Notes under the pieces: model-generated
Database searches by the model: none
Seen by the model: only the letters and a program-made list of their open reading frames with translations
What the model was told of the DNA's origin: nothing
Shown here: in pieces, positions 4,018 to 23,292 of the stretch
Layout of the letters: the number at the start of each line of letters is the position of its first letter
How positions within the stretch are numbered: the first letter of the stretch is position 1
Source of the DNA: a virus
Taxonomy: Duplodnaviria > Heunggongvirae > Uroviricota > Caudoviricetes
Direction: 5' to 3' (one strand)
Virus record (IMG/VR): IMGVR_UViG_3300012940_000021
Span: 1 to 63,911 of that record
DNA: 63,911 nucleotides
Translations under genes and position numbers: made by a program

Positions 4018-4257
4018 CTAACAGCACCCCTGAGCCTGCTCCAGCCCGTACTGCCGTCCGGCCTCGAACAGATCCTCCAGCTCCTCGCGGCTCACCATGA
4101 CGCGGTTGCCCGCGCCCGTGACCCAATCCGAACGAACCAGCGCGTTCCACAGGCGCTCGGGGGACGTGCGATCCGCCTCGGCGGTGGTGGCAGGGGGCTG
4201 CTCGACGCCTCGCGGCAGATCGAAAGCGTGCCGCCCGACAGGTTGCAGATGTGCCAT
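4018..4257 (-). CDS. Hypothetical protein
   Basis: GAGGAGG RBS. Confidence 0.65.
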   Translation of the reverse strand: MAHLQPVGRHAFDLPRGVEQPPATTAEADRTSPERLWNALVRSDWVTGAGNRVMVSREELEDLFEAGRQYGLEQAQGCC

Positions 4258-4266
4258 GGTGCCTCC

Positions 4267-4755
4267 TCAGTGGGCGTAGGTGTATGCGACCAGCCGCCCG
4301 TCGAACTGCGGGCTGAAGTTGGCCAGGATCGAGTCGATGAGGGTGATGCCGACGGCGTAGCGGCGGTAGCCGCGACCGGGGTAGCCCCTGCTGCCCTCCT
4401 TGGTGGTCTCGCCCTGCGCCACGATGAGCGCTGCACGGACCTCCTCCAGCGGGATGCACGCGATCCGAGTGCCGTAGGCGTCCTCGGTGAGGTTGACCTC
4501 GTGCGTGACGCCCTGCTCGTCCTCGCGCTGCACGCGGGTGTAGATGATGTTGAAGACGCCGGTCTTCTCGAACTCCTCGTCCGCGAGCTTCTGGTACTTG
4601 TGGACCAGATCCCAGACGGTGCGATCCACGCCCGACAGGTCGATGGATGCGAACTCGTGGAACCCGCGCCCGTACTTCGCGTGGTACTCGTGCATGCTCT
4701 CGTCGTCGTGGTCGTGCCACTGCGCGCCGATGTGAAGCTTCAGTTCAACTCCCAT
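4267..4755 (-). CDS. Hypothetical protein (162 aa)
   Basis: GGAGG RBS, typical codon usage. Confidence 0.7.
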   Translation of the reverse strand: MGVELKLHIGAQWHDHDDESMHEYHAKYGRGFHEFASIDLSGVDRTVWDLVHKYQKLADEEFEKTGVFNIIYTRVQREDEQGVTHEVNLTEDAYGTRIACIPLEEVRAALIVAQGETTKEGSRGYPGRGYRRYAVGITLIDSILANFSPQFDGRLVAYTYAH

Positions 4756-4767
4756 GGTGGGCCTCCC

Positions 4768-5109
4768 TCAGTCGTTCTGCTGCTGGATGTAGCCGGTGCC
4801 GTCGCACTCGTTGCACTCGGCCTGGACCTCGCCGGAGAACTTGTCGCGCTCGGCGTCGGCCTGGTAGGTGCGCTCGCCCGTGCCGTCGCACGCCTCGCAC
4901 TTGGGCGGCATGACGTTGTGCCACCAGTGAACGGTGACGTTGTAGCCCTGGTGCCGCCCGTAGCGGCCTCGGCTCGCCTGCGTGTGCGTGGTCGTGCGGC
5001 GCGGCTTGCACGGGCACTTGCTGGCCTCGTCGCCAACTCCCGTGATGTGCCCGATGATGAGGAACCGCTCGCCGGGGACGACGGGCGGGTGGTGGATTGT
5101 CTGCGTCAT
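4768..5109 (-). CDS. DnaJ-type zinc-finger repeat protein
   Basis: CEACDGTG and CNECDGTG motifs. Confidence 0.65.
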   Translation of the reverse strand: MTQTIHHPPVVPGERFLIIGHITGVGDEASKCPCKPRRTTTHTQASRGRYGRHQGYNVTVHWWHNVMPPKCEACDGTGERTYQADAERDKFSGEVQAECNECDGTGYIQQQND

Positions 5110-5182
5110 GGCGACCTCCGAAGTGTTGACCTGCATTCAGGATACCACTAACGGATGACAATTGCCATCCTCGCCCTTCGTT

Positions 5183-5341
5183 TCAGGAAACCAGCGTGTC
5201 CAGCCTCGTGTCCCCGTAGCCTGCCTCCTCGAAGTGCCGGAGGATCTCCCGCGCCTCGTCGTCGTAGTTGATCCACTCACGGGCGCTCGTCACGGTGTGC
5301 CCCTCGCTCGCGGCCAGCACGATGAGGGTTGACGTGGCCAT
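5183..5341 (-). CDS. Small hypothetical protein
   Basis: Short ORF with phage-like codon usage. Confidence 0.45.
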   Translation of the reverse strand: MATSTLIVLAASEGHTVTSAREWINYDDEAREILRHFEEAGYGDTRLDTLVS

Positions 5342-5415
5342 CGTGCTCGTGGCGAACCGGCGCTTCTTGCCGGGGAGGAACCAGTCCACGCCCAGACTGC
5401 TGCTGCTCCTCGCCA

Positions 5416-5901
5416 CTAGAACCCCGGAGGTCGTGAGTGCGCAGCTCGGGCGACGTTCGCGTTGTGCTGCTGGACGACGGGATCGAACGCGAGATCCCGC
5501 TTGCGCGAAATCTTCTCGATGACCTCGACGGCCTCGTCGCTCGGGGCCTCGACCTCGCGCATGCCGTGCTCGGCTGCTGCTCGTCCGCTCGGGAACAGCG
5601 GGACCTCGGTCGTGTACGTGGCGCACGACGGGTCGAGCGATCCGCGTGCGATGCCCAGTCGCACCGCGAGGAGGTCGGTCGGCTCCCGATGACCCAACCA
5701 GCCGCTGCACACCGTGCCGTCGCCCTGGTGGCAGTGGAACTCCTTCAGGGCCTGCTCATGCTGCACCTGCTCGTGAATCTCGCCGTCGTACTCGGGGAGC
5801 TTCAGGTACTCCTCGGGATGCCAGACTCCACTCGGCACGTTTTGCCGGTAGGGGCAGGACGCACATGGGCGCTTGCGGGGGACCGCTGCCTCAGCGGCCA
5901 T
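5416..5901 (-). CDS. Cys/His-rich protein (DUF6283-like)
   Basis: PCASCPYR...PSGVW...FHCHQ...CSGWL. Confidence 0.65.
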   Translation of the reverse strand: MAAEAAVPRKRPCASCPYRQNVPSGVWHPEEYLKLPEYDGEIHEQVQHEQALKEFHCHQGDGTVCSGWLGHREPTDLLAVRLGIARGSLDPSCATYTTEVPLFPSGRAAAEHGMREVEAPSDEAVEVIEKISRKRDLAFDPVVQQHNANVARAAHSRPPGF

Positions 5902-10177: not shown

Positions 10178-11158
10178 TCAGCCGTACAGGCGGCGGTTGA
10201 CTTCCTTCTGCACAGCGGCGTAGTCGTAGCCTGCGGCCTGGAGCCGACGCTTGCGGTCGTCGCCGTTCCCCCACTTGCCCGCGAGAACCTCGGTGGCGAG
10301 AGTGCTCACGGACTTGCGTGGGGCGGAGCCGCCGACTCCGAGCTTCTGGTTGACCAGAGCCTGGATGGTGGCGTAGTCGTACCCGGCTGCTGCCAGGCGA
10401 CGCTTGCGATCCTCCCCGTTCCCCCACTTGCCAGCGAGCACTTCGTTGGCGATGGTGTCGTTCGACTTCTTCGGCGGAGCGGGGGGCGGTGTTGGAGTCG
10501 AACCTCCCGGAACCTTCAGCACCTGCCCGGCGAAGATGAGGTTGGGGTTGGGCAGACCGTTGAGGGACTGGAGAACCTGCCACGTCGTCCCGAACTTCGC
10601 GGCGATGCCGGAGAGGGTGTCCCCGCGTTGCACCGTGTAGGTGCCTCCTCCGGGCGGTGGAGTTGGAGTGCCCTGACCCAGGATCTCGTTCCCTCGGGCG
10701 ACGATGTAGTCGAGCTTGCTCCACAGGGTCGGACCGGGGCATGCGGTCGCGTTGAACTCGCGGTGACCCTTGACACGGTTGCGGTCGAGCCGACCCCATC
10801 CGTAGCGCTGGCAGAGGTCAGCGGCGAGCTGCGCGAGCTTCTCGACCTGCGCGTCCGAGACCGGCCAGTTTGGAGCGCCTCCCGTGTTGACCGTTTCGAC
10901 GGCCACGGCGTTCTTGTCGGCGTTCCAGCCCGTCGTCCACTGGCGGTACTCCTCGGGCACGATGCCGACCAGTTCGCCCGTGGTGAACAGCACGTAGGAC
11001 GCGGAGACATCCGCCGCGCTCGCGGAGAGGTACTGGAGGTTGCCCTCGTTGGTGTTGCCCGCCGTGTGGTGGACGATGAGCCGCTCGATCTTGTTGCCCT
11101 GGCGGCTGCTGTACTTCGTAGTGGGCACCGAGCGCGATGCCAGGCGGGAGAACGTCAT
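10178..11158 (-). CDS. Endolysin: Amidase_2 domain + LysM + two Cpl-7 repeats
   Basis: IVHHTAG...SASY...[11 protein letters not shown]; [17 protein letters not shown]; 2x [10 protein letters not shown](E/D)[12 protein letters not shown]. Confidence 0.92.
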
Positions 11159-14562: not shown

Positions 14563-14710
14563 CCCTTCCGCAGAGTGATACGGCCCTCAGCGCCCACGAG
14601 AAAGGGCCAGCCGCAACCCGAATACGACTGGCCCTCGGTCCCTTGGGGACCTTCCCCCACGACCTCGGCGCGCTTACCCGTTGACCGCCTGAGGTCTGTT
14701 CGGAAGTCAA

Positions 14711-14804: not shown

Positions 14805-14806
14805 AG

Positions 14807-14880
14807 TCGCTCAGGGTGGACTCGAACCACCGCGTGACGGCGTTATGAGCGCCGCGCCTTACCGTCTTGGCTACTGAGCG
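14807..14880 (-). tRNA. tRNA with CAT anticodon (Met or Ile2)
   Basis: Acceptor CGCTCAG/CTGAGCG; anticodon arm CGGCG-CTCATAA-CGCCG; TTCGAGT T loop. Confidence 0.85.
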
Positions 14881-14983: not shown

Positions 14984-16597
14984 CTAGTCCTTGACGAACT
15001 CGGCCATCAAGCCAGGTGCGGCGGTGTCGAACCCGGCGATGTCGAGCATGCCGGGGTCGTTCGGGTTGGCGATGGAGAACCGGGTCGCCGTCATGCCGAC
15101 GACGATCAGCTTGGCGTTGATGCCCGTCGCCTTCCGGTAACGCTCCAGGGCCTCGTGCGGGTGAACCCGACCAGCCCAGGTCTCGCTGTCCGTGTAGATG
15201 ACGAACACGTCGGCCTTGATGCCCTTCTCCAGCGCGTGGAGCATGGGCAGCGCGCAGTCCGTGCCTCCCATGGGGATGCGCGAGATCCGCCGCTGGACCT
15301 CATCGAGGGTCATGTTCGCGCTGATGTCGATGGGGACCATCGTGTGCGAGAACCCTGCGATGTAGGACTCCTTCTCCGTCGCCGCCGTGACGAGCGACAG
15401 GGCAGCCGACGCCTCGCGGGGAGTGATCGGCATGCCGGAGATGTTGCCCCAGCCCATCGAGCCGGACACGTCGAGCGCCAGGAACCAGCGCTTGCTGGTC
15501 GGCTCGACCGCCTTGAACGCCTTGTAGAACGCCGTGTCGAGCGCGTCCACGATCCGGCGTACCGGAGTGAAGTCACGCCCGCCGCGACCCTCGCCCTCGG
15601 CGTAGGTCTTCAGCGCCACCAGCAGGTTGAGCGGGTGGATGCGAGCCTTCACCAGGGCGTCCTGGTCCGTCAGACGGTCCACGATCTCCTGCGTCCGGCC
15701 ACCCAGCTCCTGGATCACCCGCGTCCGCGTGAGCTTCGGCAGGTTGCGGATCAGGGCACCGAGCGGCAGCGCGCCCTTGGTGTCGAGCAGGGCCTCCCAG
15801 GTCTCACGCCGGTTGAGCGCCTCGGAAGGCACCATCTCCCAGCTCAGACCGTACTCGCGGATGAGCGACGGAATCTTGTCGGACTCCGCGCCCTTCGCCC
15901 GCTCGAAGCCCTGGACGATCTTCGGCAGCGCCTCGATGTCCTTGGCCTTGCCCAGGGTCCAGTCGATGAGCCGGGAGAACTCCGGGTCCTCCTTCGAGCG
16001 CGTCGGGTGCGACAGGCTGATGAGGTCGTCGTTCGACCAGCCCTCACGGGCCTGGTACTTCACGAGCTGGTAGGCCAGGGCGTCGAGGTCCCGACCCTCG
16101 TACCAGCGCGAGATGGCCTTGCGAGCGCCCATGCCGAACCGCTGGAACTGGTTCAGGTAGCCCGCGAACTGGAAGAGGGTGGACGCCGTGCGCGCCACGG
16201 ACGCGACCTTGGAGTAGCCGTAGCTCTTCAGGTGCCGGTCCGGCGTGGATGCGATGGCGAGCGCGAGGGCGAACAGAGCGGGCTGCTGCTTCGCCGCCCG
16301 ACCCCCGACCGAGATCTCCTCGATGAGGTCGAACAGCGCACGAACCTGCTCGGCGTCGCCGGACTGCGCGACCTTCTGGATGGTCTTCGCGTTCTCCAGA
16401 GCGAGCTTCGCGCCCGACTGGTAGAACGAGGACTCCGACCCCATGATGAGGAAGCGCTTGATGCGCTCGAAGTCTCCGATGACGAAGGCGTAGCCTCCGG
16501 CGTGATTCTTCTTCTGCCCCTTCGCGGCCTTCTCGGTCTGCGGGGTCGCCGTGACGCTCTTCCGAGTCGTGACGGTCTTCAGTGCTTCGTTGGCCAT
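14984..16597 (-). CDS. Ro60/Rsr-like RNA-binding protein (TROVE + vWA)
   Basis: NHAGGYAF, RFLIMGSE..FY, LVKYQAREGWS..DL..LSHP, ALIRNL, vWA LALDVSGSM and IYTDSETW. Confidence 0.92.
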   Translation of the reverse strand: MANEALKTVTTRKSVTATPQTEKAAKGQKKNHAGGYAFVIGDFERIKRFLIMGSESSFYQSGAKLALENAKTIQKVAQSGDAEQVRALFDLIEEISVGGRAAKQQPALFALALAIASTPDRHLKSYGYSKVASVARTASTLFQFAGYLNQFQRFGMGARKAISRWYEGRDLDALAYQLVKYQAREGWSNDDLISLSHPTRSKEDPEFSRLIDWTLGKAKDIEALPKIVQGFERAKGAESDKIPSLIREYGLSWEMVPSEALNRRETWEALLDTKGALPLGALIRNLPKLTRTRVIQELGGRTQEIVDRLTDQDALVKARIHPLNLLVALKTYAEGEGRGGRDFTPVRRIVDALDTAFYKAFKAVEPTSKRWFLALDVSGSMGWGNISGMPITPREASAALSLVTAATEKESYIAGFSHTMVPIDISANMTLDEVQRRISRIPMGGTDCALPMLHALEKGIKADVFVIYTDSETWAGRVHPHEALERYRKATGINAKLIVVGMTATRFSIANPNDPGMLDIAGFDTAAPGLMAEFVKD

Positions 16598-16647
16598 CGT
16601 GTGGCTCCTTTCATTCGGCCTGCCCTCGGCTGAGGGGAGACAGGGGG

Positions 16648-16726
16648 ATCGGTGAGACAGGTGATCGCCTCCGGGGGGATTCTTCTGGATGGTAGAGGTA
16701 ACCCGGAATGCTTCGGCCTGACCGAT
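16648..16726 (-). ncRNA. Y RNA-like unit D (short)
   Basis: AGGCCGAAG 5' strand, CCTGTCTC 3' strand, ATCGGT/ACCGAT closing stem, GGGTTA motif. Confidence 0.7.
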
Positions 16727-16736
16727 GTTCAGTTAG

Positions 16737-16845
16737 AGGGCGAGACAGGTGATGAGTCCGGGGTTCCCAACCAACAGGGACCACGATCAGTGACGACCGC
16801 GACAGGAATCGAACCAGCGATAACCCGTGCTCTTCGGCCTAGCCC
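16737..16845 (-). ncRNA. Y RNA-like unit C
   Basis: AGGCCGAAG...CCTGTCTC, GGGC/GCCC closure, internal TTCGATT loop. Confidence 0.7.
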
Positions 16846-16847
16846 AG

Positions 16848-16915
16848 CGCCCCTGGAGGGAGTCGAACCCTCCGTCATGACCCTCCGCCCGGTCGATTTC
16901 GGGACTAGCAGGGGC
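16848..16915 (-). ncRNA. Pseudo-tRNA without a recognisable anticodon arm
   Basis: GCCCCTG/CAGGGGC acceptor plus GAGGG-TTCGACT-CCCTC. Confidence 0.4.
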
Positions 16916-16926
16916 GATGCGGATCT

Positions 16927-17003
16927 CGGGGAGATAGGGGACGCAGCCGGGGACTTGATCCATCCCAACTGAAAGGTAACCCGACGATGCTTCGACCTGC
17001 CCG
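16927..17003 (-). ncRNA. Y RNA-like unit B (short)
   Basis: AGGTCGAAG...CCTATCTC, CGGG/CCCG closure, GGGTTA. Confidence 0.65.
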
Positions 17004-17021
17004 AGGTCTAAGTCCAGAGGT

Positions 17022-17159
17022 CGGCGGAGACAGGGGGTGCAATCCGATGTTTAGGCGCTCTAGCCAATTGAGCTACGGGGACCGAAGTCCCCGACGGGAT
17101 TCGAACCCGCAACCTCCCGCTGAACAGGCGATAACCGAATCACTTCGGCCTGCGCCGCC
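17022..17159 (-). ncRNA. YrlA-type Y RNA, unit A
   Basis: GNCGAAG Ro motif, then T arm, closed acceptor-like hairpin GGGGAC-TTCG-GTCCCC, then D arm GCTC/GAGC, then CTGTCTC; this is the YrlA arm order. Confidence 0.85.
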
Positions 17160-17187
17160 CTCTGGGAATCTCTGTGTAGTTGTCTCG

Positions 17188-17246
17188 TGCCAGCGCCGGG
17201 GAATCGAACCCCGCCCCGGTGGCCATCTCCGGTGCTCCAGCCTGGC
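17188..17246 (-). ncRNA. Short pseudo-tRNA
   Basis: GCCAG/CTGGC ends plus CGGGG-TTCGATT-CCCCG. Confidence 0.35.
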
Positions 17247-17345
17247 TCAGGAGGTCCCGGATGATCCCGGAGCGGCCTTGTACTTCGGTCGCCCTCCTGC
17301 GTCATGAGTGATACGCCCAACAGTGGAACAGGAACAAGGGTGGAG

Positions 17346-17415
17346 TGGAGAATATGGGACTCGAACCCATCTCGGCCTGCTTGCAAGGCAAGCGTGCGGA
17401 CCCTGCGCATTCCCC
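17346..17415 (-). tRNA. tRNA-Ala(TGC)
   Basis: G3:U70 pair; anticodon loop CTTGCAA. Confidence 0.85.
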
Positions 17416-17416
17416 G

Positions 17417-17492
17417 TGGTGGCCTCGGAACGACTTGAACGTCCGACCGCTTGCTTATCAGGCAAGTGCTCTACCTGCTGAGCTACGAGACC
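17417..17492 (-). tRNA. tRNA-Ile(GAT)
   Basis: Full cloverleaf, encoded CCA. Confidence 0.92.
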
Positions 17493-17562
17493 GTGTGCGC
17501 GTTCTCGCCCAGACGCGCCCCTGGAGCCGTGACTTCGGACCATCCTCCGTCAGCGAGCAGTG

Positions 17563-17634
17563 ACCCCTCGACTGGATTCGAACCAGCGACTCGTGGATTA
17601 GAACGCCACAGCTCTTCCGCTGAGCTACGAGGGG
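17563..17634 (-). tRNA. tRNA-Arg(TCT)
   Basis: Cloverleaf, loop GTTCTAA. Confidence 0.85.
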
Positions 17635-17637
17635 AAG

Positions 17638-17711
17638 TGGACGCGCCTCCCGGAATCTAACCGGGCTGTGACGGGTTGCAGCCGTCCGCCTGAACACTCG
17701 GCCAAGGCGCG
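17638..17711 (-). tRNA. tRNA-Cys(GCA)
   Basis: U73, CCA; T loop TTAGATT. Confidence 0.88.
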
Positions 17712-17720
17712 AAAATCTTG

Positions 17721-17791
17721 TGGGTCCCCGGAATCCCGACATCCGATCTGCTGGGTAAAAGCCAGCGGTCCTTCCTTTGAACGAGAGACCC
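17721..17791 (-). tRNA. tRNA-Lys(TTT) with a degenerate T loop
   Basis: GCTGG-CTTTTAC-CCAGC; T loop GTCGGGA. Confidence 0.7.
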
Positions 17792-17800
17792 GAGGAGGGC

Positions 17801-17875
17801 TGGCTCCGGGCCAGGGATTCGAACCCCGACCGGCTGAGTCCAACGCCCAGCGTGCTGCCGTTACACCAGCCCGGA
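17801..17875 (-). tRNA. tRNA-Gln(TTG)
   Basis: Cloverleaf, CCA. Confidence 0.88.
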
Positions 17876-17982
17876 ATGTGGAGAGGGAGCCTGACGACCT
17901 TCCGGTATCGCTCAGCGACCTCACTGGACTCACCCCGCGATCAGACTGCCGCCCTCGCTGCCGGGTACTCCCTCTCCATGCG

Positions 17983-18054
17983 CTGCCTCCCCTGGATTCG
18001 AACCAAGACCCGCCACGTCCAGAGCGTGGTGTGCTGCCGTTACACCAAGAGGCA
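17983..18054 (-). tRNA. tRNA-Gln(CTG)
   Basis: CCACG-CTCTGGA-CGTGG. Confidence 0.9.
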
Positions 18055-18156
18055 TCATCCGGGAGGTCGAGGGCCGCTAAGCCCCCGCCTCCTCGGCGGC
18101 GATCCGGGTTTCTAGGTGCGCTGCCATCAACCCGACTATGGTCGCCGTGACCATCG

Positions 18157-18228
18157 TGCCCCGAGCAGGATTCGAACCTGCGACCCACGGCTTCGGAAGC
18201 CGTCGCTCTTCCTCTGAGCTACCAAGGC
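18157..18228 (-). tRNA. tRNA-Arg(CCG)
   Basis: ACGGC-TTCCGAA-GCCGT. Confidence 0.9.
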
Positions 18229-18282
18229 AGGCCGGGCGCTGATCCAACAGCAATCCTGAATCGAACAGTCCGTTCCCGGTTC

Positions 18283-18345
18283 GTCAGCGCTCTGCCATTG
18301 AGCTACCCCCGCAGGGGGCCGGGACTCGAACCCGGATACTCTGAC
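18283..18345 (-). ncRNA. Circularly permuted tRNA-like module
   Basis: GTCAG, T arm, CCCCC-TGC-GGGGG, D arm, CTGAC. Confidence 0.6.
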
Positions 18346-18347
18346 CG

Positions 18348-18419
18348 TGCCCCCGGAGAGATTCGAACTCCCGGCCCCGTCATCCGTAGTGACGTGCTCT
18401 TCCGCTGAGCTACGAAGGC
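18348..18419 (-). tRNA. tRNA-Arg(ACG)
   Basis: CGTCA-CTACGGA-TGACG. Confidence 0.9.
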
Positions 18420-18584
18420 AAGTTCCGCAGTGCGGGGTCGTCACCGTTGCCTGGCCAGCCCGATGACGCCCTTGGCGAGATCCAGTCCGACCCTCCCCAG
18501 CGTCCTCGGGAGCGACCCGAATCTTCTGGCTGCTGACGTTCTGGTGCAGCGCGGACCCTGCGACCGATCCGCTCTCGTACTTTG

Positions 18585-18656
18585 CTCCCCACGATGGATT
18601 CGAACCACCGACCATCGAGTTAACAGCTCGCCGCTCTGCCACTGAGCTAGTGGGGA
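18585..18656 (-). tRNA. tRNA-Asn(GTT)
   Basis: Cloverleaf. Confidence 0.9.
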
Positions 18657-18743
18657 TCAGGGAGTGACCACGGGACGCCTCAGTAGCGTGGTCTGGGCGG
18701 CAGCTCCTCTGAGGAGGACTTGCAAGTAGCCGCTGCTAGTTTG

Positions 18744-18815
18744 TGCTCACCGAGGGACTCGAACCCCCGCGCTGTCGGGTGTAAACCGCCTGCTCTGCCG
18801 CTGAGCTAGGTGAGC
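18744..18815 (-). tRNA. tRNA-Val(TAC)
   Basis: Cloverleaf. Confidence 0.88.
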
Positions 18816-18865
18816 GTGTTCCCCGTCCGTTCAGTCCGCACTACGGGGCCTCATGCGGCGGGAGG

Positions 18866-18938
18866 AGCCTTCCACGGGGGTCGAACCCGTGACCTCGCCC
18901 TTACCATGGGCGTGCTCTGCCTGCTGAGCTAGGAAGGC
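18866..18938 (-). tRNA. tRNA-Thr(GGT)
   Basis: CGCCC-ATGGTAA-GGGCG. Confidence 0.9.
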
Positions 18939-19038
18939 GGGCCTCGGCACCTTGCGGGTGTCGAGGTTATCCGGGAGGCCACTACCCAATGGGAATCGAA
19001 CCCTTCGCTTTCTCCCTTGTGCGTTTCGAACCGCACCG

Positions 19039-19111
19039 AGCCGCTCCGGGGAATCGAACCCCGTGCCTTCCCCTTACGAGGGGGATGCTCTGCCATATGA
19101 GCTAGAGCGGC
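19039..19111 (-). tRNA. tRNA-Thr(CGT)
   Basis: TCCCC-CTCGTAA-GGGGA. Confidence 0.9.
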
Positions 19112-19220
19112 GTGATGCTGGACCCCGGTTCAACTAGTCGTCCTGCACGACGTGTCCAGCCGCAGGAATCGAGGGGCGGGGTGAACGAAGGCGGACCCGA
19201 TCCGCGCCCGCGACCCTCAG

Positions 19221-19293
19221 AGCCGCTCGTGGGAGTCGAACCCACGCACTTCCGCTTACAAGGCGGATGCTCTGGCCTCTGAGCTAGAGCGGC
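19221..19293 (-). tRNA. tRNA-Thr(TGT)
   Basis: TCCGC-CTTGTAA-GCGGA. Confidence 0.9.
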
Positions 19294-19354
19294 GAGAACC
19301 CCCGCCGATCTCGCTGCCGCTGGAACGGCATCCAGGGAGACCGACGGTTCGGAG

Positions 19355-19428
19355 AGGGGCACGCGGGTGACGATCCCGCCGCCTCCACCTTGGCAAGGTG
19401 GCGCTCTGCCAGCATGAGCTAGTACCCC
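19355..19428 (-). tRNA. tRNA-Gly(GCC)
   Basis: CCACC-TTGCCAA-GGTGG; T loop ATCGTCA. Confidence 0.85.
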
Positions 19429-19551
19429 ATGTAGCGGATTGATACCGAGTCTGGCTCCGTCGAGCCTCCCTCGAAGAGGACGCTACCCCCTGCCGCTCTG
19501 AGGTTGGTCGGCTACCCTCCTGCGTCCCTGGCCGGGGACTCGCGGAGAACG

Positions 19552-19627
19552 TGGATCGGACGACGGGCCTCGAACCCGCGACATTCACTTTGGAAGAGTG
19601 ACGCTCTACCGACTGAGCTACGTCCGA
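19552..19627 (-). tRNA. tRNA-Gly(TCC)
   Basis: Cloverleaf, CCA. Confidence 0.92.
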
Positions 19628-19628
19628 G

Positions 19629-19702
19629 TGCCCCCGCTTGGATTCGAACCAAGGACCCGAAGCTTAAGAGGCAACTGCTCTGACCATCTGAGCTACGGAG
19701 GC
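19629..19702 (-). tRNA. tRNA-Lys(CTT)
   Basis: Loop CTCTTAA; anticodon stem has two T-T mismatches. Confidence 0.82.
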
Positions 19703-19733
19703 GTGTGCCACCTGCGTCCGGTGGCCCGACTTG

Positions 19734-19824
19734 CGGAAGAGACAGGGGTTGAACCTGCACGCGGAGCGAGTCCGCAGCCCCGCTAGCAACGGGGTGCCGC
19801 CGCCATCTATCGGCTGGCTCTTCC
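19734..19824 (-). tRNA. tRNA-Ser(GCT)
   Basis: Long variable arm, G73. Confidence 0.88.
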
Positions 19825-19828
19825 AGAG

Positions 19829-19919
19829 CGGAGAGGGCGGGGGACGATCCCGCACGCGAGGAGACCCCGCAGCCACCTTTCCAGGGTGGTGCCGCCGCCA
19901 TCTATCGGCTGGCCTCTCC
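19829..19919 (-). tRNA. tRNA-Ser(GGA)
   Basis: Long variable arm; T loop ATCGTCC. Confidence 0.85.
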
Positions 19920-19932
19920 AGGTGAACATCCG

Positions 19933-20023
19933 TGGCGGAAGGGGCGAGGGTCGAACTCGCACGCGCCGGAGCGCAGTCGCTTTTCGAGAGCGGTGCCGCC
20001 GCCATCTGTCGGCTGGCCCTTCC
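19933..20023 (-). tRNA. tRNA-Ser(CGA)
   Basis: Long variable arm, CCA. Confidence 0.88.
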
Positions 20024-20080
20024 AGGATGTTCCTGTTCCACTGTGGAGTTCTGAAGTTTCGTGCTCGCACCCGCAGATGC

Positions 20081-20111
20081 GAAAGGCCCCTGGATCTTCA
20101 TCCGAGGGGCC
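20081..20111 (-). terminator. Putative intrinsic terminator
   Basis: GGCCCC/GGGGCC stem followed by TTT. Confidence 0.55.
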
Positions 20112-20299
20112 GTGTGGCTGAGACTGGGAGTCTCGGAGCTACGACAGCCCGAAGGAACCGGAGATGACCGAATTGGTCGTCCCGGCCCGCTTGGCCTGTC
20201 GCTGAGTGCTCATGTCGTTGACCCTACTGGATGCGGCAGCCGGATTGCAACTGCCATCTTCGATGTTACAGGAAGCGGATTGCATTTGCAATCTGCCCG

Positions 20300-20372
20300 T
20301 AGCGCCCGTGGGATTCGAACCCACACTGGACGGCCCCTCAGACCGTTGCCTCTGCCGTTGGGCTAGAGCGCC
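20300..20372 (-). tRNA. tRNA-Leu(GAG), short variable loop
   Basis: ACGGT-CTGAGGG-GCCGT, 5-nt variable loop. Confidence 0.82.
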
Positions 20373-20452
20373 ATGCGGCGAGGCGCTCCGTTTCTGGGTC
20401 GAGCTACGCCTCACCTGGGATCGACCGTCGCTGCAGCTCGGATCTCACCTTG

Positions 20453-20526
20453 TAGCCGCCGTGGGATTCGAACCCACAACACACCGGGTCTGAGCCGGAG
20501 TCCTCTACCAGTTGGGATAGACGGCC
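20453..20526 (-). tRNA. tRNA-Leu(CAG), short variable loop
   Basis: CCGG-CTCAGAC-CCGG, short variable loop. Confidence 0.82.
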
Positions 20527-20643
20527 ATGCTGGCCCCCGATTGCCTCCGGGGGTGGGAGTGGAAGTGATCCAGTCGCGTACTGGACCCTGGTCCCGCAGG
20601 TTGCGAGCCTGCTCGGTTCTGAGGGTGCATCCTCGTTCCCTTG

Positions 20644-20716
20644 TGCCCACCGTCGGGATCGAACCGACAGCCTCCGGCTTTTCAGACCGGCGCTCTTCCA
20701 CCTGAGCTTGGAGGGC
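20644..20716 (-). tRNA. tRNA-Phe(GAA)
   Basis: CCGGT-CTGAAAA-GCCGG. Confidence 0.9.
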
Positions 20717-20820
20717 AGGTTGCTCGCCGTGGACCCTTTCGGGAATCGCCCCGCGAGCTGACGGTGGGTCGTCACCCTGTGTGACCCTGGTCGTAGCCGG
20801 GTCGCCGCTCTCATGTTGCG

Positions 20821-20898
20821 TGCCGTGCCCGAGAATCGAACTCGTCTACTCCGAAGAGGAGGGCTTTACAGGCCCCCGTGCGTCCCAGCGCTCACGAC
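20821..20898 (-). tRNA. tRNA-Tyr(GTA)
   Basis: GGGGC-CTGTAAA-GCCCT, long variable arm, short D arm. Confidence 0.78.
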
Positions 20899-21240
20899 TT
20901 GTGGGATCTCTGTTGAGTTGTCTTCCAGAAGAGTCCCCACCAGTTCGGCCTTGACCCGGAGGTAAGGCTGAATCTCGATCAAGAACATTCTGGCCGTTCT
21001 ATGTGTCGTTCTGAAGTTGTGTCCCATGTTCCCCGCGACGGACAGACCCTTCTCGTAGACCGCCCCGTAGCCGAGTGTCTCCCGAATCCAATCGAGCACT
21101 CGCCTGTCATTTTGAGCGATCTGGGCCGTCAGCCTTGGGTATCGCTTCTGGTTCTTGCTCGACTTCACCGAGGTCCGAAACACGGAGCCTTCGCCATCGA
21201 ACAGTCCGGCGATGTATGCAAGCTCAACTTCAGTAGCCAC
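20866..21240 (-). CDS. LAGLIDADG homing endonuclease (single motif)
   Basis: LAYIAGLFDGEGSV...IAQND...LDWIRETLGYG; lower GC than flanks; reading frame runs into tRNA-Tyr. Confidence 0.85.
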   Translation of the reverse strand: MATEVELAYIAGLFDGEGSVFRTSVKSSKNQKRYPRLTAQIAQNDRRVLDWIRETLGYGAVYEKGLSVAGNMGHNFRTTHRTARMFLIEIQPYLRVKAELVGTLLEDNSTEIPQVVSAGTHGGL

Positions 21241-21275
21241 TATTGAATTGTATAGGGTTCCGTCACGGAATCCGG

Positions 21276-21347
21276 TAGCCCGTAGGGGATTCGAACCCCT
21301 GCCGTCCGGCTTGAAAGGCCAGCATCCTTCCTGTAGACCAACGGGCC
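21276..21347 (-). tRNA. tRNA-Glu(TTC)
   Basis: Loop CTTTCAA, canonical T arm. Confidence 0.88.
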
Positions 21348-21495
21348 AGGTTCGGAGATTCAGACGTGCTCTGCGCCTCGGATGCGTCGTCCTCGGCACT
21401 GCCTCTGCACCACAGCCCCTGGCGGAGCTGGCGGGATGCGACCCCCGCGTCTTCTGTTTCTCCTTGAAGGGCCGACTCGCCAGCCGGACCTCCCG

Positions 21496-21566
21496 CACCC
21501 CATCCCGGTACTGACCCGAGACTACGACGCTGAGAACGTCGCGTGCTTCCACTACACCAATGGGGC
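21496..21566 (-). tRNA. tRNA-Glu(CTC) with an atypical T loop
   Basis: CGACG-TTCTCAG-CGTCG; T loop GTCAGTA. Confidence 0.75.
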
Positions 21567-21691
21567 ATGTTGTCGCTTTCCTGGGGGTTCCTCCCCCGCG
21601 TTTCAGGCTCGGGAGGCAGGTCCGCGACTCACGCATTGCGATCCCACCCCTGGGACCCCGATGCGTCCGGTTCGGAACCGAAGTTCCTCTG

Positions 21692-21765
21692 CGACCTCGA
21701 CGGGACTCGAACCCGCGACCTCCACCGTGACAGGGTGGCGCTCTCCTCTTCTGAGCTACGAAGCC
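21692..21765 (-). tRNA. tRNA-Asp(GTC)
   Basis: CCACC-CTGTCAC-GGTGG. Confidence 0.9.
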
Positions 21766-21873
21766 ATGTTGGCAGCTTGGGGCGTGACTCCCTTCGAAAT
21801 CTTCTCCCCGCCCCCCGAAGGGACGGCCAGTACCTGGCGGGGGTCGGACTCTCGTCCGCTGCCGTGAACGACG

Positions 21874-21950
21874 TGGGGTGACCGACGGGACTTGAACCCG
21901 CGACATCCTGATCCACAATCAGGCGCTCTACCTACTGAGCTACGGCCAAC
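21874..21950 (-). tRNA. tRNA-His(GTG)
   Basis: Encoded G-1, C73, CCA. Confidence 0.9.
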
Positions 21951-21951
21951 G

Positions 21952-22024
21952 TCCGGGTAGCAGGTCTCGAACCTGCGACCTCCTGATCCCAAATCAGGCG
22001 CGCTACCTACTGCGCCACACCCGG
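21952..22024 (-). tRNA. tRNA-Pro(TGG)
   Basis: CCTGA-TTTGGGA-TCAGG. Confidence 0.9.
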
Positions 22025-22072
22025 TTGTCGTTGCTTCCTCTGTTGAGTTGTCAGTGCCCTGAGAAACACGAA

Positions 22073-22099
22073 GGGCCTCGATCCTGAGATCCGAGGCCC
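22073..22099 (-). terminator. Putative terminator hairpin
   Basis: GGGCCTCG/CGAGGCCC stem. Confidence 0.5.
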
Positions 22100-22418
22100 G
22101 AAGGTTGCGTGGGTACGACGAGCCTGCTAGATCGGAAGATCCAGCTCGGGGTGCTCGAAGTACTTGCGCATGTTCGGGACCTTACAGCCTTTCGTTTCTC
22201 GATGTCAACTTCCAGGTCGCCGGAGCGAGGGGCGCGATGGAAGCAGTTCCCTGCTCCCCCGCTCCGGCGACTCTTGGGTTGGGGAGGGGCGCTGCCCGAA
22301 GGCCCGCTGTCCTCCCCGTGTCCTTGCACCGCTATCCAGTTGCCTGGACTCCTCGCTGTCTCGGCGTCCTCGGGAGAGGACTACCGGTGACCTTGCTCGG
22401 GATGGGTACTGGACCCCG

Positions 22419-22492
22419 TTGCGGAGAGTGGATTCGAACCACCGACCTCCAGGTTATGAGCCTGGCGAGCTACCGAGCTGCTCTACCCCGCA
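22419..22492 (-). tRNA. tRNA-Met(CAT), initiator-like
   Basis: GCGGGGTAGAGCAG...GGTAGCTC D arm typical of fMet; upstream TTGACA-17-CATACT promoter. Confidence 0.88.
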
Positions 22493-22524
22493 GTGACCCA
22501 GTATGGGCGTCAATTGCCATCCTG

Positions 22525-23022
22525 TCAAGAGGCCATCAGCTCGTTGTAGTTGAACCGCCGACCGAGCACGTCCGGGAGCATGACCTCCTCGCCCTCGAAG
22601 CCCAGCAGGCGGCTGTCGTACAGCAGGATGTACTTCTGGACGGAGGTCTCCATCCGCACGAACGCGGCTCCGGCGTCGGTCACCCGCCACCAGCCCGCAC
22701 GGCCCCCGTCTGGTCGTCGGGTCGGCTCCTCCTCGATGAATCCCCAGTAGCGGAGCATCGAGTAGTACCCGCTCACACCCATGGCGCGCTGGGTCACTCG
22801 ATCCTCGCCGTTGAAGGTCGGCACGTGGAAGAACTCCTGGCCGTTGACCCGGTAGGCCCGGATGAGGAACGTGGCCATGGCTCCGTTGAGCGGGCGCTTG
22901 TACACCTTAGCGATCTGCTCGCAGCACGGGCATGCGACCGCTCCCGGCTGACGAAGACGCTCTCGGAGCCAACGTCGAGCCTCGTTGAGCGTCGTCCTCG
23001 CGGACGCGGCCATCCGTTCCAT
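22525..23022 (-). CDS. Hypothetical protein (CxxC-like motif, possibly winged helix)
   Basis: AGGAG RBS; CPCC. Confidence 0.7.
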   Translation of the reverse strand: MERMAASARTTLNEARRWLRERLRQPGAVACPCCEQIAKVYKRPLNGAMATFLIRAYRVNGQEFFHVPTFNGEDRVTQRAMGVSGYYSMLRYWGFIEEEPTRRPDGGRAGWWRVTDAGAAFVRMETSVQKYILLYDSRLLGFEGEEVMLPDVLGRRFNYNELMAS

Positions 23023-23117
23023 GTGGCTCCTGCCGTTGACCTACGTGGAGATCCCAGGGGGACCTATCCGCTCTATCGGGCGGAAGCCGCTGTGGGCTTT
23101 TCGGTCCCCCTGGTACG

Positions 23118-23188
23118 CGGGGCGTAGAGGAATCGAACCTCTGCTCGTGGTTTTGGAGACCACCGGGCTACCACTACACCAACTCCCC
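23118..23188 (-). tRNA. tRNA-Trp(CCA)
   Basis: GTGGT-CTCCAAA-ACCAC. Confidence 0.9.
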
Positions 23189-23219
23189 AGGTGCCCCCGC
23201 CTCCGAAGCTGCGGGGGAG

Positions 23220-23292
23220 TGGCCCTCCTCGGATTCGAACCGAGACTGTGGCGGGTTTGAGCCGCCTCCCTCTGCCGTTGGGGTAGAGGGCC
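23220..23292 (-). tRNA. tRNA-Leu(CAA), short variable loop
   Basis: GGCGG-CTCAAAC-CCGCC, 5-nt variable loop. Confidence 0.85.

What the first reader, a model, noticed from the sequence alone, without database searches (positions are those of the whole stretch)
14984..17159. Phage Ro60 preceded by four tandem, architecturally different Y RNAs
Seen: four minus-strand units upstream of ro60 (17022-17159, 16927-17003, 16737-16845, 16648-16726). Each has AGG[CT]CGAAG on its 5' strand, CCT[GA]TCTC on its 3' strand, its own complementary closing stem, and a shared GGTTA motif a few nt after the GAAG. Only unit A has the full T-acceptor-D tRNA-mimic domain; unit C keeps a T loop; units B and D are ~75-nt minimal forms. 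Known: bacterial Y RNAs bind Ro60 through GNCGAAN(0-1)G in a bulged helix, YrlA carries a tRNA-like domain, and Deinococcus Rsr is tethered to PNPase by a Y RNA. Inference: one Ro60 with four interchangeable adaptor RNAs could recruit different partners, or protect or repair the phage tRNA pool next door. I know of one or two Y RNAs per locus, not four with a shared extra motif.
Basis: partly seen in the sequence, partly recalled or inferred. Interest (0 to 1): 0.9.

Follow-up and report, generated by a model that had tools for sequence, protein, structure and literature searches.

The report
Four Y RNAs before phage Ro60
A phage gene for the RNA-binding ring protein Ro60 is preceded by four small RNA genes that carry its known docking helix; they look genuine, but such arrays of one to eight turn out to be usual beside Ro60 genes of actinobacterial phages and bacteria.

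Summary
On the minus strand, 16648-17159, four tandem units each carry AGGYCGAAG on the 5' side, CCURUCUC on the 3' side, their own closing stem, and a second stem ending in GGUUAYC. They lie directly upstream of a full-length Ro60 gene (TROVE + vWA).

A covariance model seeded from unit D alone and iterated finds all four units and nothing else in the 127.9-kb phage genome. Across 19 other phage Ro60 loci and 21 bacterial ones it gave 119 matches in total, every one on the Ro60 strand. Covariation supports the helices.

- The four units are two classes duplicated. A and C are YrlA-like with a tRNA-like domain (C degenerate); B and D are short hairpins.
- Four is not unusual. I counted 0-8 units per locus, and four in several Micropruina genomes.
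- GGUUAYC is a signature of the whole family, not of this phage.

A permuted copy of the Ro helix sits on the ro60 ribosome-binding site here and in about half the phage loci, which suggests autoregulation.

This scan has already noted tandem Y-like arrays beside Ro60-like genes in many other genomes.

Verdict: a new member of a known kind, of moderate interest.

The parts
14984..16597 (-). ro60 gene, 537 aa, TROVE ring plus vWA domain with a DxSxS MIDAS motif
   Evidence: Pfam; PHROG 850 RNA-binding protein; PDB Rsr and Ro60 hits at E about 1e-103; translation
17021..17159 (-). Unit A: YrlA-type Y RNA. It has the Ro helix, stem 2, a long variable-arm hairpin, a T arm, an acceptor-like hairpin, a UA linker and a D arm.
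   Evidence: Rfam YrlA 44.4 bits over model positions 1-114; R2 32.2 bits, with A not used in training; R3 52.4 bits
16925..17005 (-). Unit B: short hairpin Y RNA (YrlB-like), with the compensatory U-A pair in the Ro helix
   Evidence: R1 42.3 bits from a model of D alone; R3 50.2 bits; fold
16849..16915 (-). Spacer X2: tRNA-like element with a 7-bp acceptor stem and a canonical T arm but no proper D or anticodon arm. It abuts unit C and is a possible RNase P/Z processing signal.
   Evidence: Rfam mascRNA model 23.2 bits, E 0.13; fold; ARAGORN calls it only at a relaxed threshold
16736..16847 (-). Unit C: degenerate YrlA-type Y RNA (T arm with a U-U mismatch, acceptor-like hairpin, D-like hairpin)
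   Evidence: Rfam YrlA 17.8 bits, E 2.7; R1 22.5 bits; R3 57.5 bits; best paralogue is A
16648..16726 (-). Unit D: short hairpin Y RNA (YrlB-like), paralogue of B
   Evidence: Seed of model R1; R3 61.4 bits; B-D alignment z 9.3
16605..16646 (-). ro60 leader with a permuted Ro helix: 3' strand CCUGUCU, a capped CCCUC/GAGGG hairpin, then 5' strand AGGCCGAA running into the Shine-Dalgarno GAAAGGAG
   Evidence: The same layout, using each lineage's own motif variant, occurs in about 11 of 20 phage loci.
17160..17300 (-). Spacer X1: structured leader with a T arm and a weak tRNA-like shape. It is not a fifth Y unit.
   Evidence: No R2 or R3 match; mascRNA model 19.6 bits, E 1.2; its GACCGAAG lies in a predicted hairpin loop
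17308..17337 (-). Promoter-like site: TTGTTC, an 18-nt spacer, then TATCAC inside the recurrent motif GGCGTATCAC
   Evidence: The motif occurs 14 times against 3.3 expected, mostly in front of genes on the minus strand. Its function is inferred.
14806..14880 (-). tRNA-Met(CAT) just downstream of ro60, followed by a terminator-like hairpin at 14604-14619

Best explanation
The 16648-17159 minus-strand stretch encodes four Y-RNA-type partner RNAs of the phage's Ro60.

Anatomy. Each unit pairs its 5' and 3' ends into a unit-specific closing stem. Next comes the conserved bulged Ro60-docking helix (5' AGGY-C-GAAG, 3' CCU-RUCU), then a second stem ending in GGUUAYC. Beyond that stem, units A and C display a YrlA-type tRNA-like domain (A canonical, C degenerate). 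Units B and D end in a short loop, like YrlB. The layout X1-A-B / X2-C-D, with A most like C and B most like D, points to duplication of a YrlA + YrlB cassette.

Inferred steps, none shown here:
1. The array is transcribed with ro60, from the promoter-like site at about 17310 or by read-through from the tRNA array.
2. It is cut into separate RNAs, as M. smegmatis YrlA and YrlB are cut from one precursor. The tRNA-like spacers may serve as RNase P/Z sites.
3. Each RNA docks on the outer face of the Ro60 ring. It then gates the ring and tethers it to host factors. The phage encodes no PNPase, so host PNPase is the precedent partner, as in phage phiLo and D. radiodurans. For A, and perhaps C, the partner would be a still unknown tRNA-elbow-binding protein.

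Four units is an ordinary array size for this family.
For: Motif clustering far above chance.

Unit A aligns over the full Rfam YrlA model.

A single-sequence model of unit D finds B and C, and also units upstream of Ro60 in Magritte, FuzzBuster, Essence and Sixama. The second iteration finds A, which was not in its training set. In the whole 127.9-kb genome only these four places match.

The third model gives 69 of 69 matches on the Ro60 strand in 186.7 kb of window plus 19 phage loci. It gives 50 of 50 on the Rsr strand, directly upstream of rsr, in 21 bacterial loci that were never used for training.

Covariation on 36 units: 87.3% of cells paired against 60.4% when shuffled and 35-49% when slid; 218 double-change cells against 74; score 0.709 against 0.232, reached by 0 of 500 shuffles.

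Ro60 is full length and keeps its MIDAS motif.

Precedents in print: M. smegmatis YrlA and YrlB lie upstream of rsr, come from one precursor and are bound by Rsr (PMC4201824). Phage phiLo Ro60 binds two upstream Yrl RNAs and forms complexes with host PNPase (PMC12135203).
Against: No unit reaches the Rfam YrlA gathering score (69 bits): A scores 44.4 and C 17.8. That model also scores 23-34 bits on other stretches of the tRNA array.

Folding energies are not better than shuffles for B and C (z about -0.1). D gives z -1.7 and A z -2.5.

The covariation counts were made on an alignment fitted to the model, which favours the model's structure.

Unit C's T stem has a mismatch and it lacks the UA linker, so its tRNA mimicry may be lost.
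Confidence: 0.75

Rival explanations
1. The array is mainly a long structured 5' leader of the ro60 mRNA. Its repeated Ro60-binding sites act in cis to titrate or autoregulate Ro60, rather than being released as separate stable RNAs.
For: No terminator-like site separates the units from ro60. The units are only 10-16 nt apart within each pair. A fifth, permuted Ro helix lies on the ribosome-binding site. In FuzzBuster the last unit's closing stem contains the Shine-Dalgarno sequence.
Against: In M. smegmatis the same layout yields discrete Rsr-bound RNAs processed from one precursor (PMC4201824). In Sixama and GMA2 the units lie downstream of ro60 among tRNA genes, where they cannot be its leader. 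tRNA-like spacers suggest processing.
Confidence: 0.12
2. Only unit A (YrlA-like) is functional; B, C and D are decaying duplicates.
For: C's tRNA-like domain is degenerate. B and D are close paralogues.
Against: The Ro helix, stem 2 and GGUUAYC are intact in all four units. B keeps pairing through a compensatory change. Short-hairpin units recur in independent lineages and score as well as the long ones.
Confidence: 0.08
3. The units are degenerate tRNA genes or tRNA-processing signals of the neighbouring tRNA array, unrelated to Ro60.
For: They adjoin 30 tRNA genes. Relaxed ARAGORN settings call pseudo-tRNAs over parts of A and the spacers. Magritte's annotated tRNA-Arg(tct) lies on the 5' half of such a unit.
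Against: B and D have no tRNA features. The shared core is the published Ro-binding motif. All 119 model matches lie beside a Ro60/Rsr gene on its strand, and none lies inside this window's own tRNA array.
Confidence: 0.04

Closest known systems
Mycobacterium smegmatis YrlA and YrlB (Chen et al. 2014, PMC4201824)
   Same: Several Y RNAs lie directly upstream of the Ro60 orthologue on the same strand. One is a tRNA mimic and one is a shorter hairpin, and both carry GNCGAAN0-1G in the 5' strand of the terminal helix. There they are processed from one precursor and bound by Rsr. The published probe sequences imply UUACC in YrlA and UAUC in YrlB at the matching position (my inference).
   Different: This locus has four units (two of each class) instead of two, plus tRNA-like spacers. 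It is phage-borne, and it has no experimental data.
YrlA family, Rfam RF02553 (S. Typhimurium YrlA structure, bioRxiv 10.1101/312249; 22 bacteriophages listed by Chen et al. 2014)
   Same: Unit A matches the whole model: Ro helix, T arm, acceptor-like hairpin, UA linker and D arm with a GG loop.
   Different: The score of 44.4 bits is below the gathering cut-off of 69. A has a 12-nt extra hairpin in the variable region. B and D lack the tRNA-like domain altogether.
Thermus phage phiLo Ro60 with Yrl1 and Yrl2 (PMC12135203)
   Same: It is a phage Ro60 with more than one CGAA-motif RNA encoded upstream. The phage has no PNPase of its own, so its partner is a host enzyme.
   Different: phiLo has two RNAs, and none is described as a tRNA mimic. 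Binding, a cryo-EM structure and PNPase complexes are shown there; nothing is shown here.
D. radiodurans Yrn1, Yrn2 and small RNAs a-d; vertebrate Y1-Y5
   Same: Two to four Ro-bound RNAs per organism share one docking helix and differ in the effector module.
   Different: Those RNAs retain the metazoan-type helix on both strands. Vertebrate Y genes are separate Pol III units, not a tandem operon.

Membership tests
Bacterial/phage Y RNA (Ro60 partner RNA) | Encoded within about 4 kb of a Ro60/Rsr gene, on the same strand | tested here: met
   All four units lie 50-560 nt upstream of ro60 on the minus strand.
Bacterial/phage Y RNA (Ro60 partner RNA) | GNCGAAN0-1G in the 5' strand of a helix formed by pairing the RNA's 5' and 3' ends | tested here: met
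   GCCGAAG or GUCGAAG is present in all four, each with its own closing stem. The helix covaries across 36 units.
Bacterial/phage Y RNA (Ro60 partner RNA) | Exists as a discrete RNA and is bound by Ro60 | not testable with these tools
YrlA subfamily (Rfam RF02553) | tRNA-like effector domain in the order T arm, acceptor-like hairpin, D arm | tested here: met
   This holds for unit A, which aligns over the full model. For unit C it is inconclusive (17.8 bits, T-stem mismatch). Units B and D do not meet it.
YrlA subfamily (Rfam RF02553) | Score at or above Rfam's gathering cut-off (69 bits) | tested here: not met
   A scores 44.4 bits and C 17.8 bits. The model also gives 23-34 bits elsewhere in the tRNA array.
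YrlB-type second Y RNA (long hairpin, small pyrimidine-rich loop) | Ro helix plus one extended hairpin, no tRNA-like domain, encoded next to a YrlA | tested here: met
   B and D are 79-81 nt and fold as a single hairpin. Each follows a long unit. Whether the loops count as pyrimidine-rich is only partly clear (D's 5' loop half is C/U-rich).
Ro60/Rsr protein | TROVE HEAT-repeat ring plus a C-terminal vWA domain with a MIDAS motif | tested here: met
   Pfam TROVE and vWA_Ro60; DVSGS motif; end-to-end matches to 2nvo, 9nen and 1yvp.

The most novel reading that the evidence does not exclude
The locus may be a self-titrating Ro60 particle factory. A duplicated YrlA + YrlB cassette, punctuated by tRNA-like minihelices that borrow the host's tRNA-processing enzymes, supplies Y RNAs in excess. 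A circularly permuted copy of the same docking helix on the ro60 ribosome-binding site lets free Ro60 (not occupied by a Y RNA) shut off its own translation.

The operator uses each lineage's own variant of the docking motif, as if it co-evolved with that lineage's Ro60: AGGCCGAA here, GAGCCGGA in L009, AGGCUGAA in Magritte and AGAUCCGAA in L007.
Probability: 0.3. Interest if true: 0.6.

Novelty: new member of a known kind. Interest (0 to 1): 0.4.

Why it matters
For this window the result is mostly a correction. The four RNAs are credible Y RNAs, but their number and their 'extra' motif are normal for the family.

The comparative by-products may help people who work on Ro60:
- A covariance model of the Ro-docking module found 119 units beside 37 of 40 Ro60/Rsr genes, always on the gene's strand.
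- It showed arrays of up to eight units in cultured, tractable phages (Magritte, Bxz1-like phages, prophiT37-1, Sixama). Most of these units are unannotated; some are annotated as small ORFs and one as a tRNA.
- A candidate autoregulatory operator lies on the ro60 start region.

These features give direct experimental handles on two open questions: what the non-YrlA Y RNAs do, and how Ro60 levels are set.

Tried and rejected
- Rfam at gathering scores found only tRNAs in the window.
- Megablast of the locus against 50,697 phage records found nothing. The nearest Ro60 is 53% identical, in Microbacterium phage Magritte.
- My first loose helix descriptors gave many false positives and were dropped in favour of covariance models.
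- MAFFT alignments of the units put the motifs out of register. I therefore seeded the model from unit D alone with a hand-drawn structure.
- X1 (17160-17300) as a fifth Y unit: rejected. It has no R2 or R3 match, and its GACCGAAG sits in a predicted hairpin loop.
- Folding-energy z-scores do not discriminate in this G+C-rich DNA.
- ORFs overlapping the units have no PHROG match.
- The phage genome has no RtcB, RNase PH/PNPase domain or Rnl2-type ligase. Genes just downstream of ro60 gave only an endolysin.
- Two reviews (PMC10870794, PMC6047535) are not held, so I cannot exclude that they mention larger arrays.
- In bacterial Rsr loci the stretch before the start reads CCGAAAGGAGG without a capped hairpin. 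The leader operator is therefore not general, and part of its CGAA signal could be Shine-Dalgarno context.
Full report
SETTING. The window is the first 63.9 kb of a 127,911-bp IMG/VR virus record that CheckV rates complete. On the minus strand lie 30 tRNA genes (17345-23292), then a 748-nt gene-free stretch, then an ORF at 14984-16597, then tRNA-Met. The ORF is a full-length Ro60:
- Pfam TROVE 3.8e-36 and vWA_Ro60 2.2e-66.
- PHROG 850, RNA-binding protein.
- End-to-end matches to D. radiodurans Rsr 2nvo (1.8e-104) and to the Ro60 entries 9nen and 1yvp.
- An intact DVSGS MIDAS motif.

THE OBSERVATION. The four units are real.
- AGGYCGAA occurs five times on the minus strand in 16614-17151. The whole window has 20 copies on both strands against 5.0 expected.
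- CCTRTCTC occurs five times in 16637-17034.
- Each unit folds with its own closing stem, then a 4-bp helix AGGY/RUCU flanked by an unpaired C, then GA/UC, then a second stem that ends in GGUUAYC.
- Unit B has U-A where the others have C-G in the 4-bp helix. This compensatory change fixes the register as that of the Rfam YrlA model.
- ORFs that overlap the units match no phage protein family.

FAMILY MEMBERSHIP. Rfam's YrlA model aligns unit A end to end at 44.4 bits and unit C at 17.8 bits; its gathering score is 69. The same model gives 23-34 bits at other places in the tRNA array, so Rfam alone does not settle the matter. I therefore built my own models in three rounds.
- R1 was built from unit D alone, with a hand-drawn structure. 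It found B (42.3 bits), C (22.5 bits) and units next to Ro60 in Magritte, FuzzBuster, Essence and Sixama.
- R2 was rebuilt from those ten hits. It gave 36 matches, all on the Ro60 strand, including unit A at 32.2 bits although A had not been used. In the phage's whole genome only the four units match R2.
- R3 was built from the 36 matches. It gave 69 matches at E up to 1 in 186.7 kb of window plus 19 phage loci, all on the Ro60 strand. In the window these are only A 52.4, B 50.2, C 57.5 and D 61.4 bits.
- In 21 bacterial Rsr loci that played no part in training (Micropruina, Tessaracoccus, Nocardia and others), R3 gave 50 matches at E up to 0.1. All lie on the rsr strand, immediately upstream of rsr.

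Pair counts on the 36-unit alignment give 87.3% of cells paired. Shuffled partners give 60.4% and slid partners 35-49%. There are 218 double-change cells against 74, and the covariation score is 0.709 against 0.232, reached by 0 of 500 shuffles. The alignment was fitted to the model, which flatters these numbers, but the margin is wide.

WHAT THE FOUR UNITS ARE.
- Unit A has the full YrlA order: T arm with a UUCGAAU loop, acceptor-like hairpin, UA linker and D arm with a GG loop. It also has a 12-nt extra hairpin in the variable region.
- Unit C has the same order, but its T stem carries a U-U mismatch and it lacks the UA linker.
- Units B and D are single hairpins of 79-81 nt.
- Pairwise alignment puts A with C (z 6.0) and B with D (z 9.3).
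- With the tRNA-like spacers, the layout is X1-A-B / X2-C-D. I read this as a duplicated YrlA + YrlB cassette, not as four different designs. M. smegmatis has one such cassette upstream of rsr (PMC4201824).

IS FOUR UNUSUAL? No. R3 counts at E up to 0.01 are as follows.
- Phage loci with four or more: L007 seven (eight with a match at E 0.15); Magritte six; Sixama six (two upstream of ro60, four downstream among tRNAs); L008 five to seven (a sixth at E 0.054, a seventh seen only by my pattern scan); L010 five; L009 four; prophiT37-1 four to six (two further at E 0.017-0.066; not in training).
- Phage loci with fewer: L005, FuzzBuster, Essence and GMA2 three each (GMA2's lie downstream among tRNAs); Comrade two (a third at E 0.068); Cashline and Sparky two; A3Wally, Jay2Jay and PacManQ one; Moab none (one at E 0.13); Pumpernickel none.
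- Bacterial loci: four units in L035, L036, L039 and L042 (all Micropruina) and in L033 (Propionibacteriales), and one to three in the others.

GGUUAYC is at least 90% conserved across the 36 units. It corresponds to the end of the anticodon-stem equivalent and the start of the variable loop in YrlA (10.1101/312249). The published M. smegmatis probes imply the same letters in YrlA and YrlB; that is my inference.

The papers I could search report at least two Y RNAs in each species studied, four small RNAs upstream of D. radiodurans rsr, YrlA in 22 phages, and two Yrl RNAs in phage phiLo. I found no paper describing arrays of four to eight in actinophages, and two reviews were not available. 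Earlier notes of this scan record similar tandem arrays beside Ro60-like genes in many other genomes.

MECHANISM, mostly inferred.
- A recurrent motif GGCGTATCAC (14 copies against 3.3 expected, mostly in front of minus-strand genes) lies at 17308-17317, with TTGTTC 18 nt before its TATCAC. It may be a promoter for the array and ro60.
- No terminator-like site separates the units from ro60. The next one on this strand is at 14604-14619, after tRNA-Met.
- I infer a polycistronic precursor that is cut into unit-sized RNAs, as in M. smegmatis.
- X2 has a 7-bp acceptor stem and a canonical T arm and abuts unit C. A similar acceptor-T minihelix separates units in L005. These are plausible RNase P/Z signals.
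- The RNAs would dock on Ro60 and link it to host factors. The phage has no RtcB, RNase PH/PNPase domain or Rnl2-type ligase, so host PNPase is the precedented partner (phiLo, D. radiodurans). The partner of the tRNA-like elbow is unknown even for Salmonella YrlA.
- Nothing here bears on protecting the phage's tRNA pool.

THE ro60 LEADER. At 16605-16646 the docking helix is rebuilt in reverse order: CCUGUCU, a capped CCCUC/GAGGG hairpin, then AGGCCGAA, followed two bases later by GAAAGGAG and by the ATG eight bases after that.

A strict descriptor finds the same layout within 40 nt of the ro60 start in six further phage loci, one of which looks spurious. Density alone would predict about 2.6 hits. 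By eye, about 11 of 20 phage loci have the layout, including the AUG or CCU that precedes the 3' strand in the true units. Each leader uses its own lineage's variant of the motif. In FuzzBuster the Shine-Dalgarno sequence lies inside the last unit's closing stem.

Bacterial Rsr loci show only CCGAAAGGAGG without the hairpin. Translational autoregulation by free Ro60 is a reasonable reading for the phages. I put it at roughly even odds.

WEAKNESSES.
- There are no RNA or binding data.
- Folding-energy z-scores are ordinary for B and C.
- The Rfam cut-off is not reached.
- The host is unknown. The nearest Ro60 proteins are 59% identical in Micropruina and 53% in Microbacterium phage Magritte.

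VERDICT. This is a new member of a known kind, Ro60 with YrlA/YrlB-type Y RNAs, and its array size is ordinary for its clade.

Noticed in passing
window 16605-16646 (-); also L010 2954-2980, L009 2954-2975, L007 2915-2934, L013 2454-2476, L027 1960-1978, L018 and L028 leaders: A permuted Ro-docking helix (3' strand, capped hairpin, 5' strand GNCGAA) runs into the ro60 Shine-Dalgarno sequence. It uses each lineage's own motif variant. It is a candidate operator for autoregulation by Ro60.
   Followed up: partly
window 16849-16915 (-) and 17160-17300 (-); L005 about 2775-2825: tRNA-like spacers between Y units have an acceptor stem and T arm but no proper D or anticodon arm. They may be RNase P/Z processing signals, in the way mascRNA marks the end of MALAT1.
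   Followed up: partly
L011 (Magritte) 1976-2052; L017 (Essence) 2128-2467; L015 (Sparky) 2349-2486: Public annotations cover Y-like units with other features. Magritte's tRNA-Arg(tct) is the 5' half of a YrlA-like unit. Essence genes 229 and 230 (and perhaps Sparky gene 35) are small 'hypothetical protein' ORFs drawn over Y units.
   Followed up: partly
L016 (Sixama) 5027-5673; L025 (GMA2) 4185-5004: In these Gordonia phages, Y-like units lie downstream of ro60, interleaved with tRNA genes. This fits processing together with the tRNAs.
   Followed up: no
window 18255-18369 (-): Rfam YrlA gives 34.4 bits here, inside the tRNA array and without a Ro motif. My Ro-module models do not match it.
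   Followed up: no
window 17308-17317 and 11 further minus-strand sites (for example 24613, 27392, 34556, 45152): The recurrent motif GGCGTATCAC occurs 14 times against 3.3 expected, usually 15-40 nt before a start codon on the minus strand. It is likely the phage's own promoter -10 region.
   Followed up: partly
L029-L049 (Micropruina, Tessaracoccus, Arachnia, Propioniciclava and others): The nearest bacterial Ro60 proteins (48-59% identity) are in Propionibacteriales, many from wastewater metagenome bins. Their rsr genes carry 3-4 upstream Y-like units. This hints at the host clade.
   Followed up: partly
window 10178-11158 (-): An endolysin (amidase_2 + LysM + CW_7 repeats) lies a few genes downstream of ro60. 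In Magritte, A3Wally and Pumpernickel the endolysin sits directly upstream of ro60.
   Followed up: no
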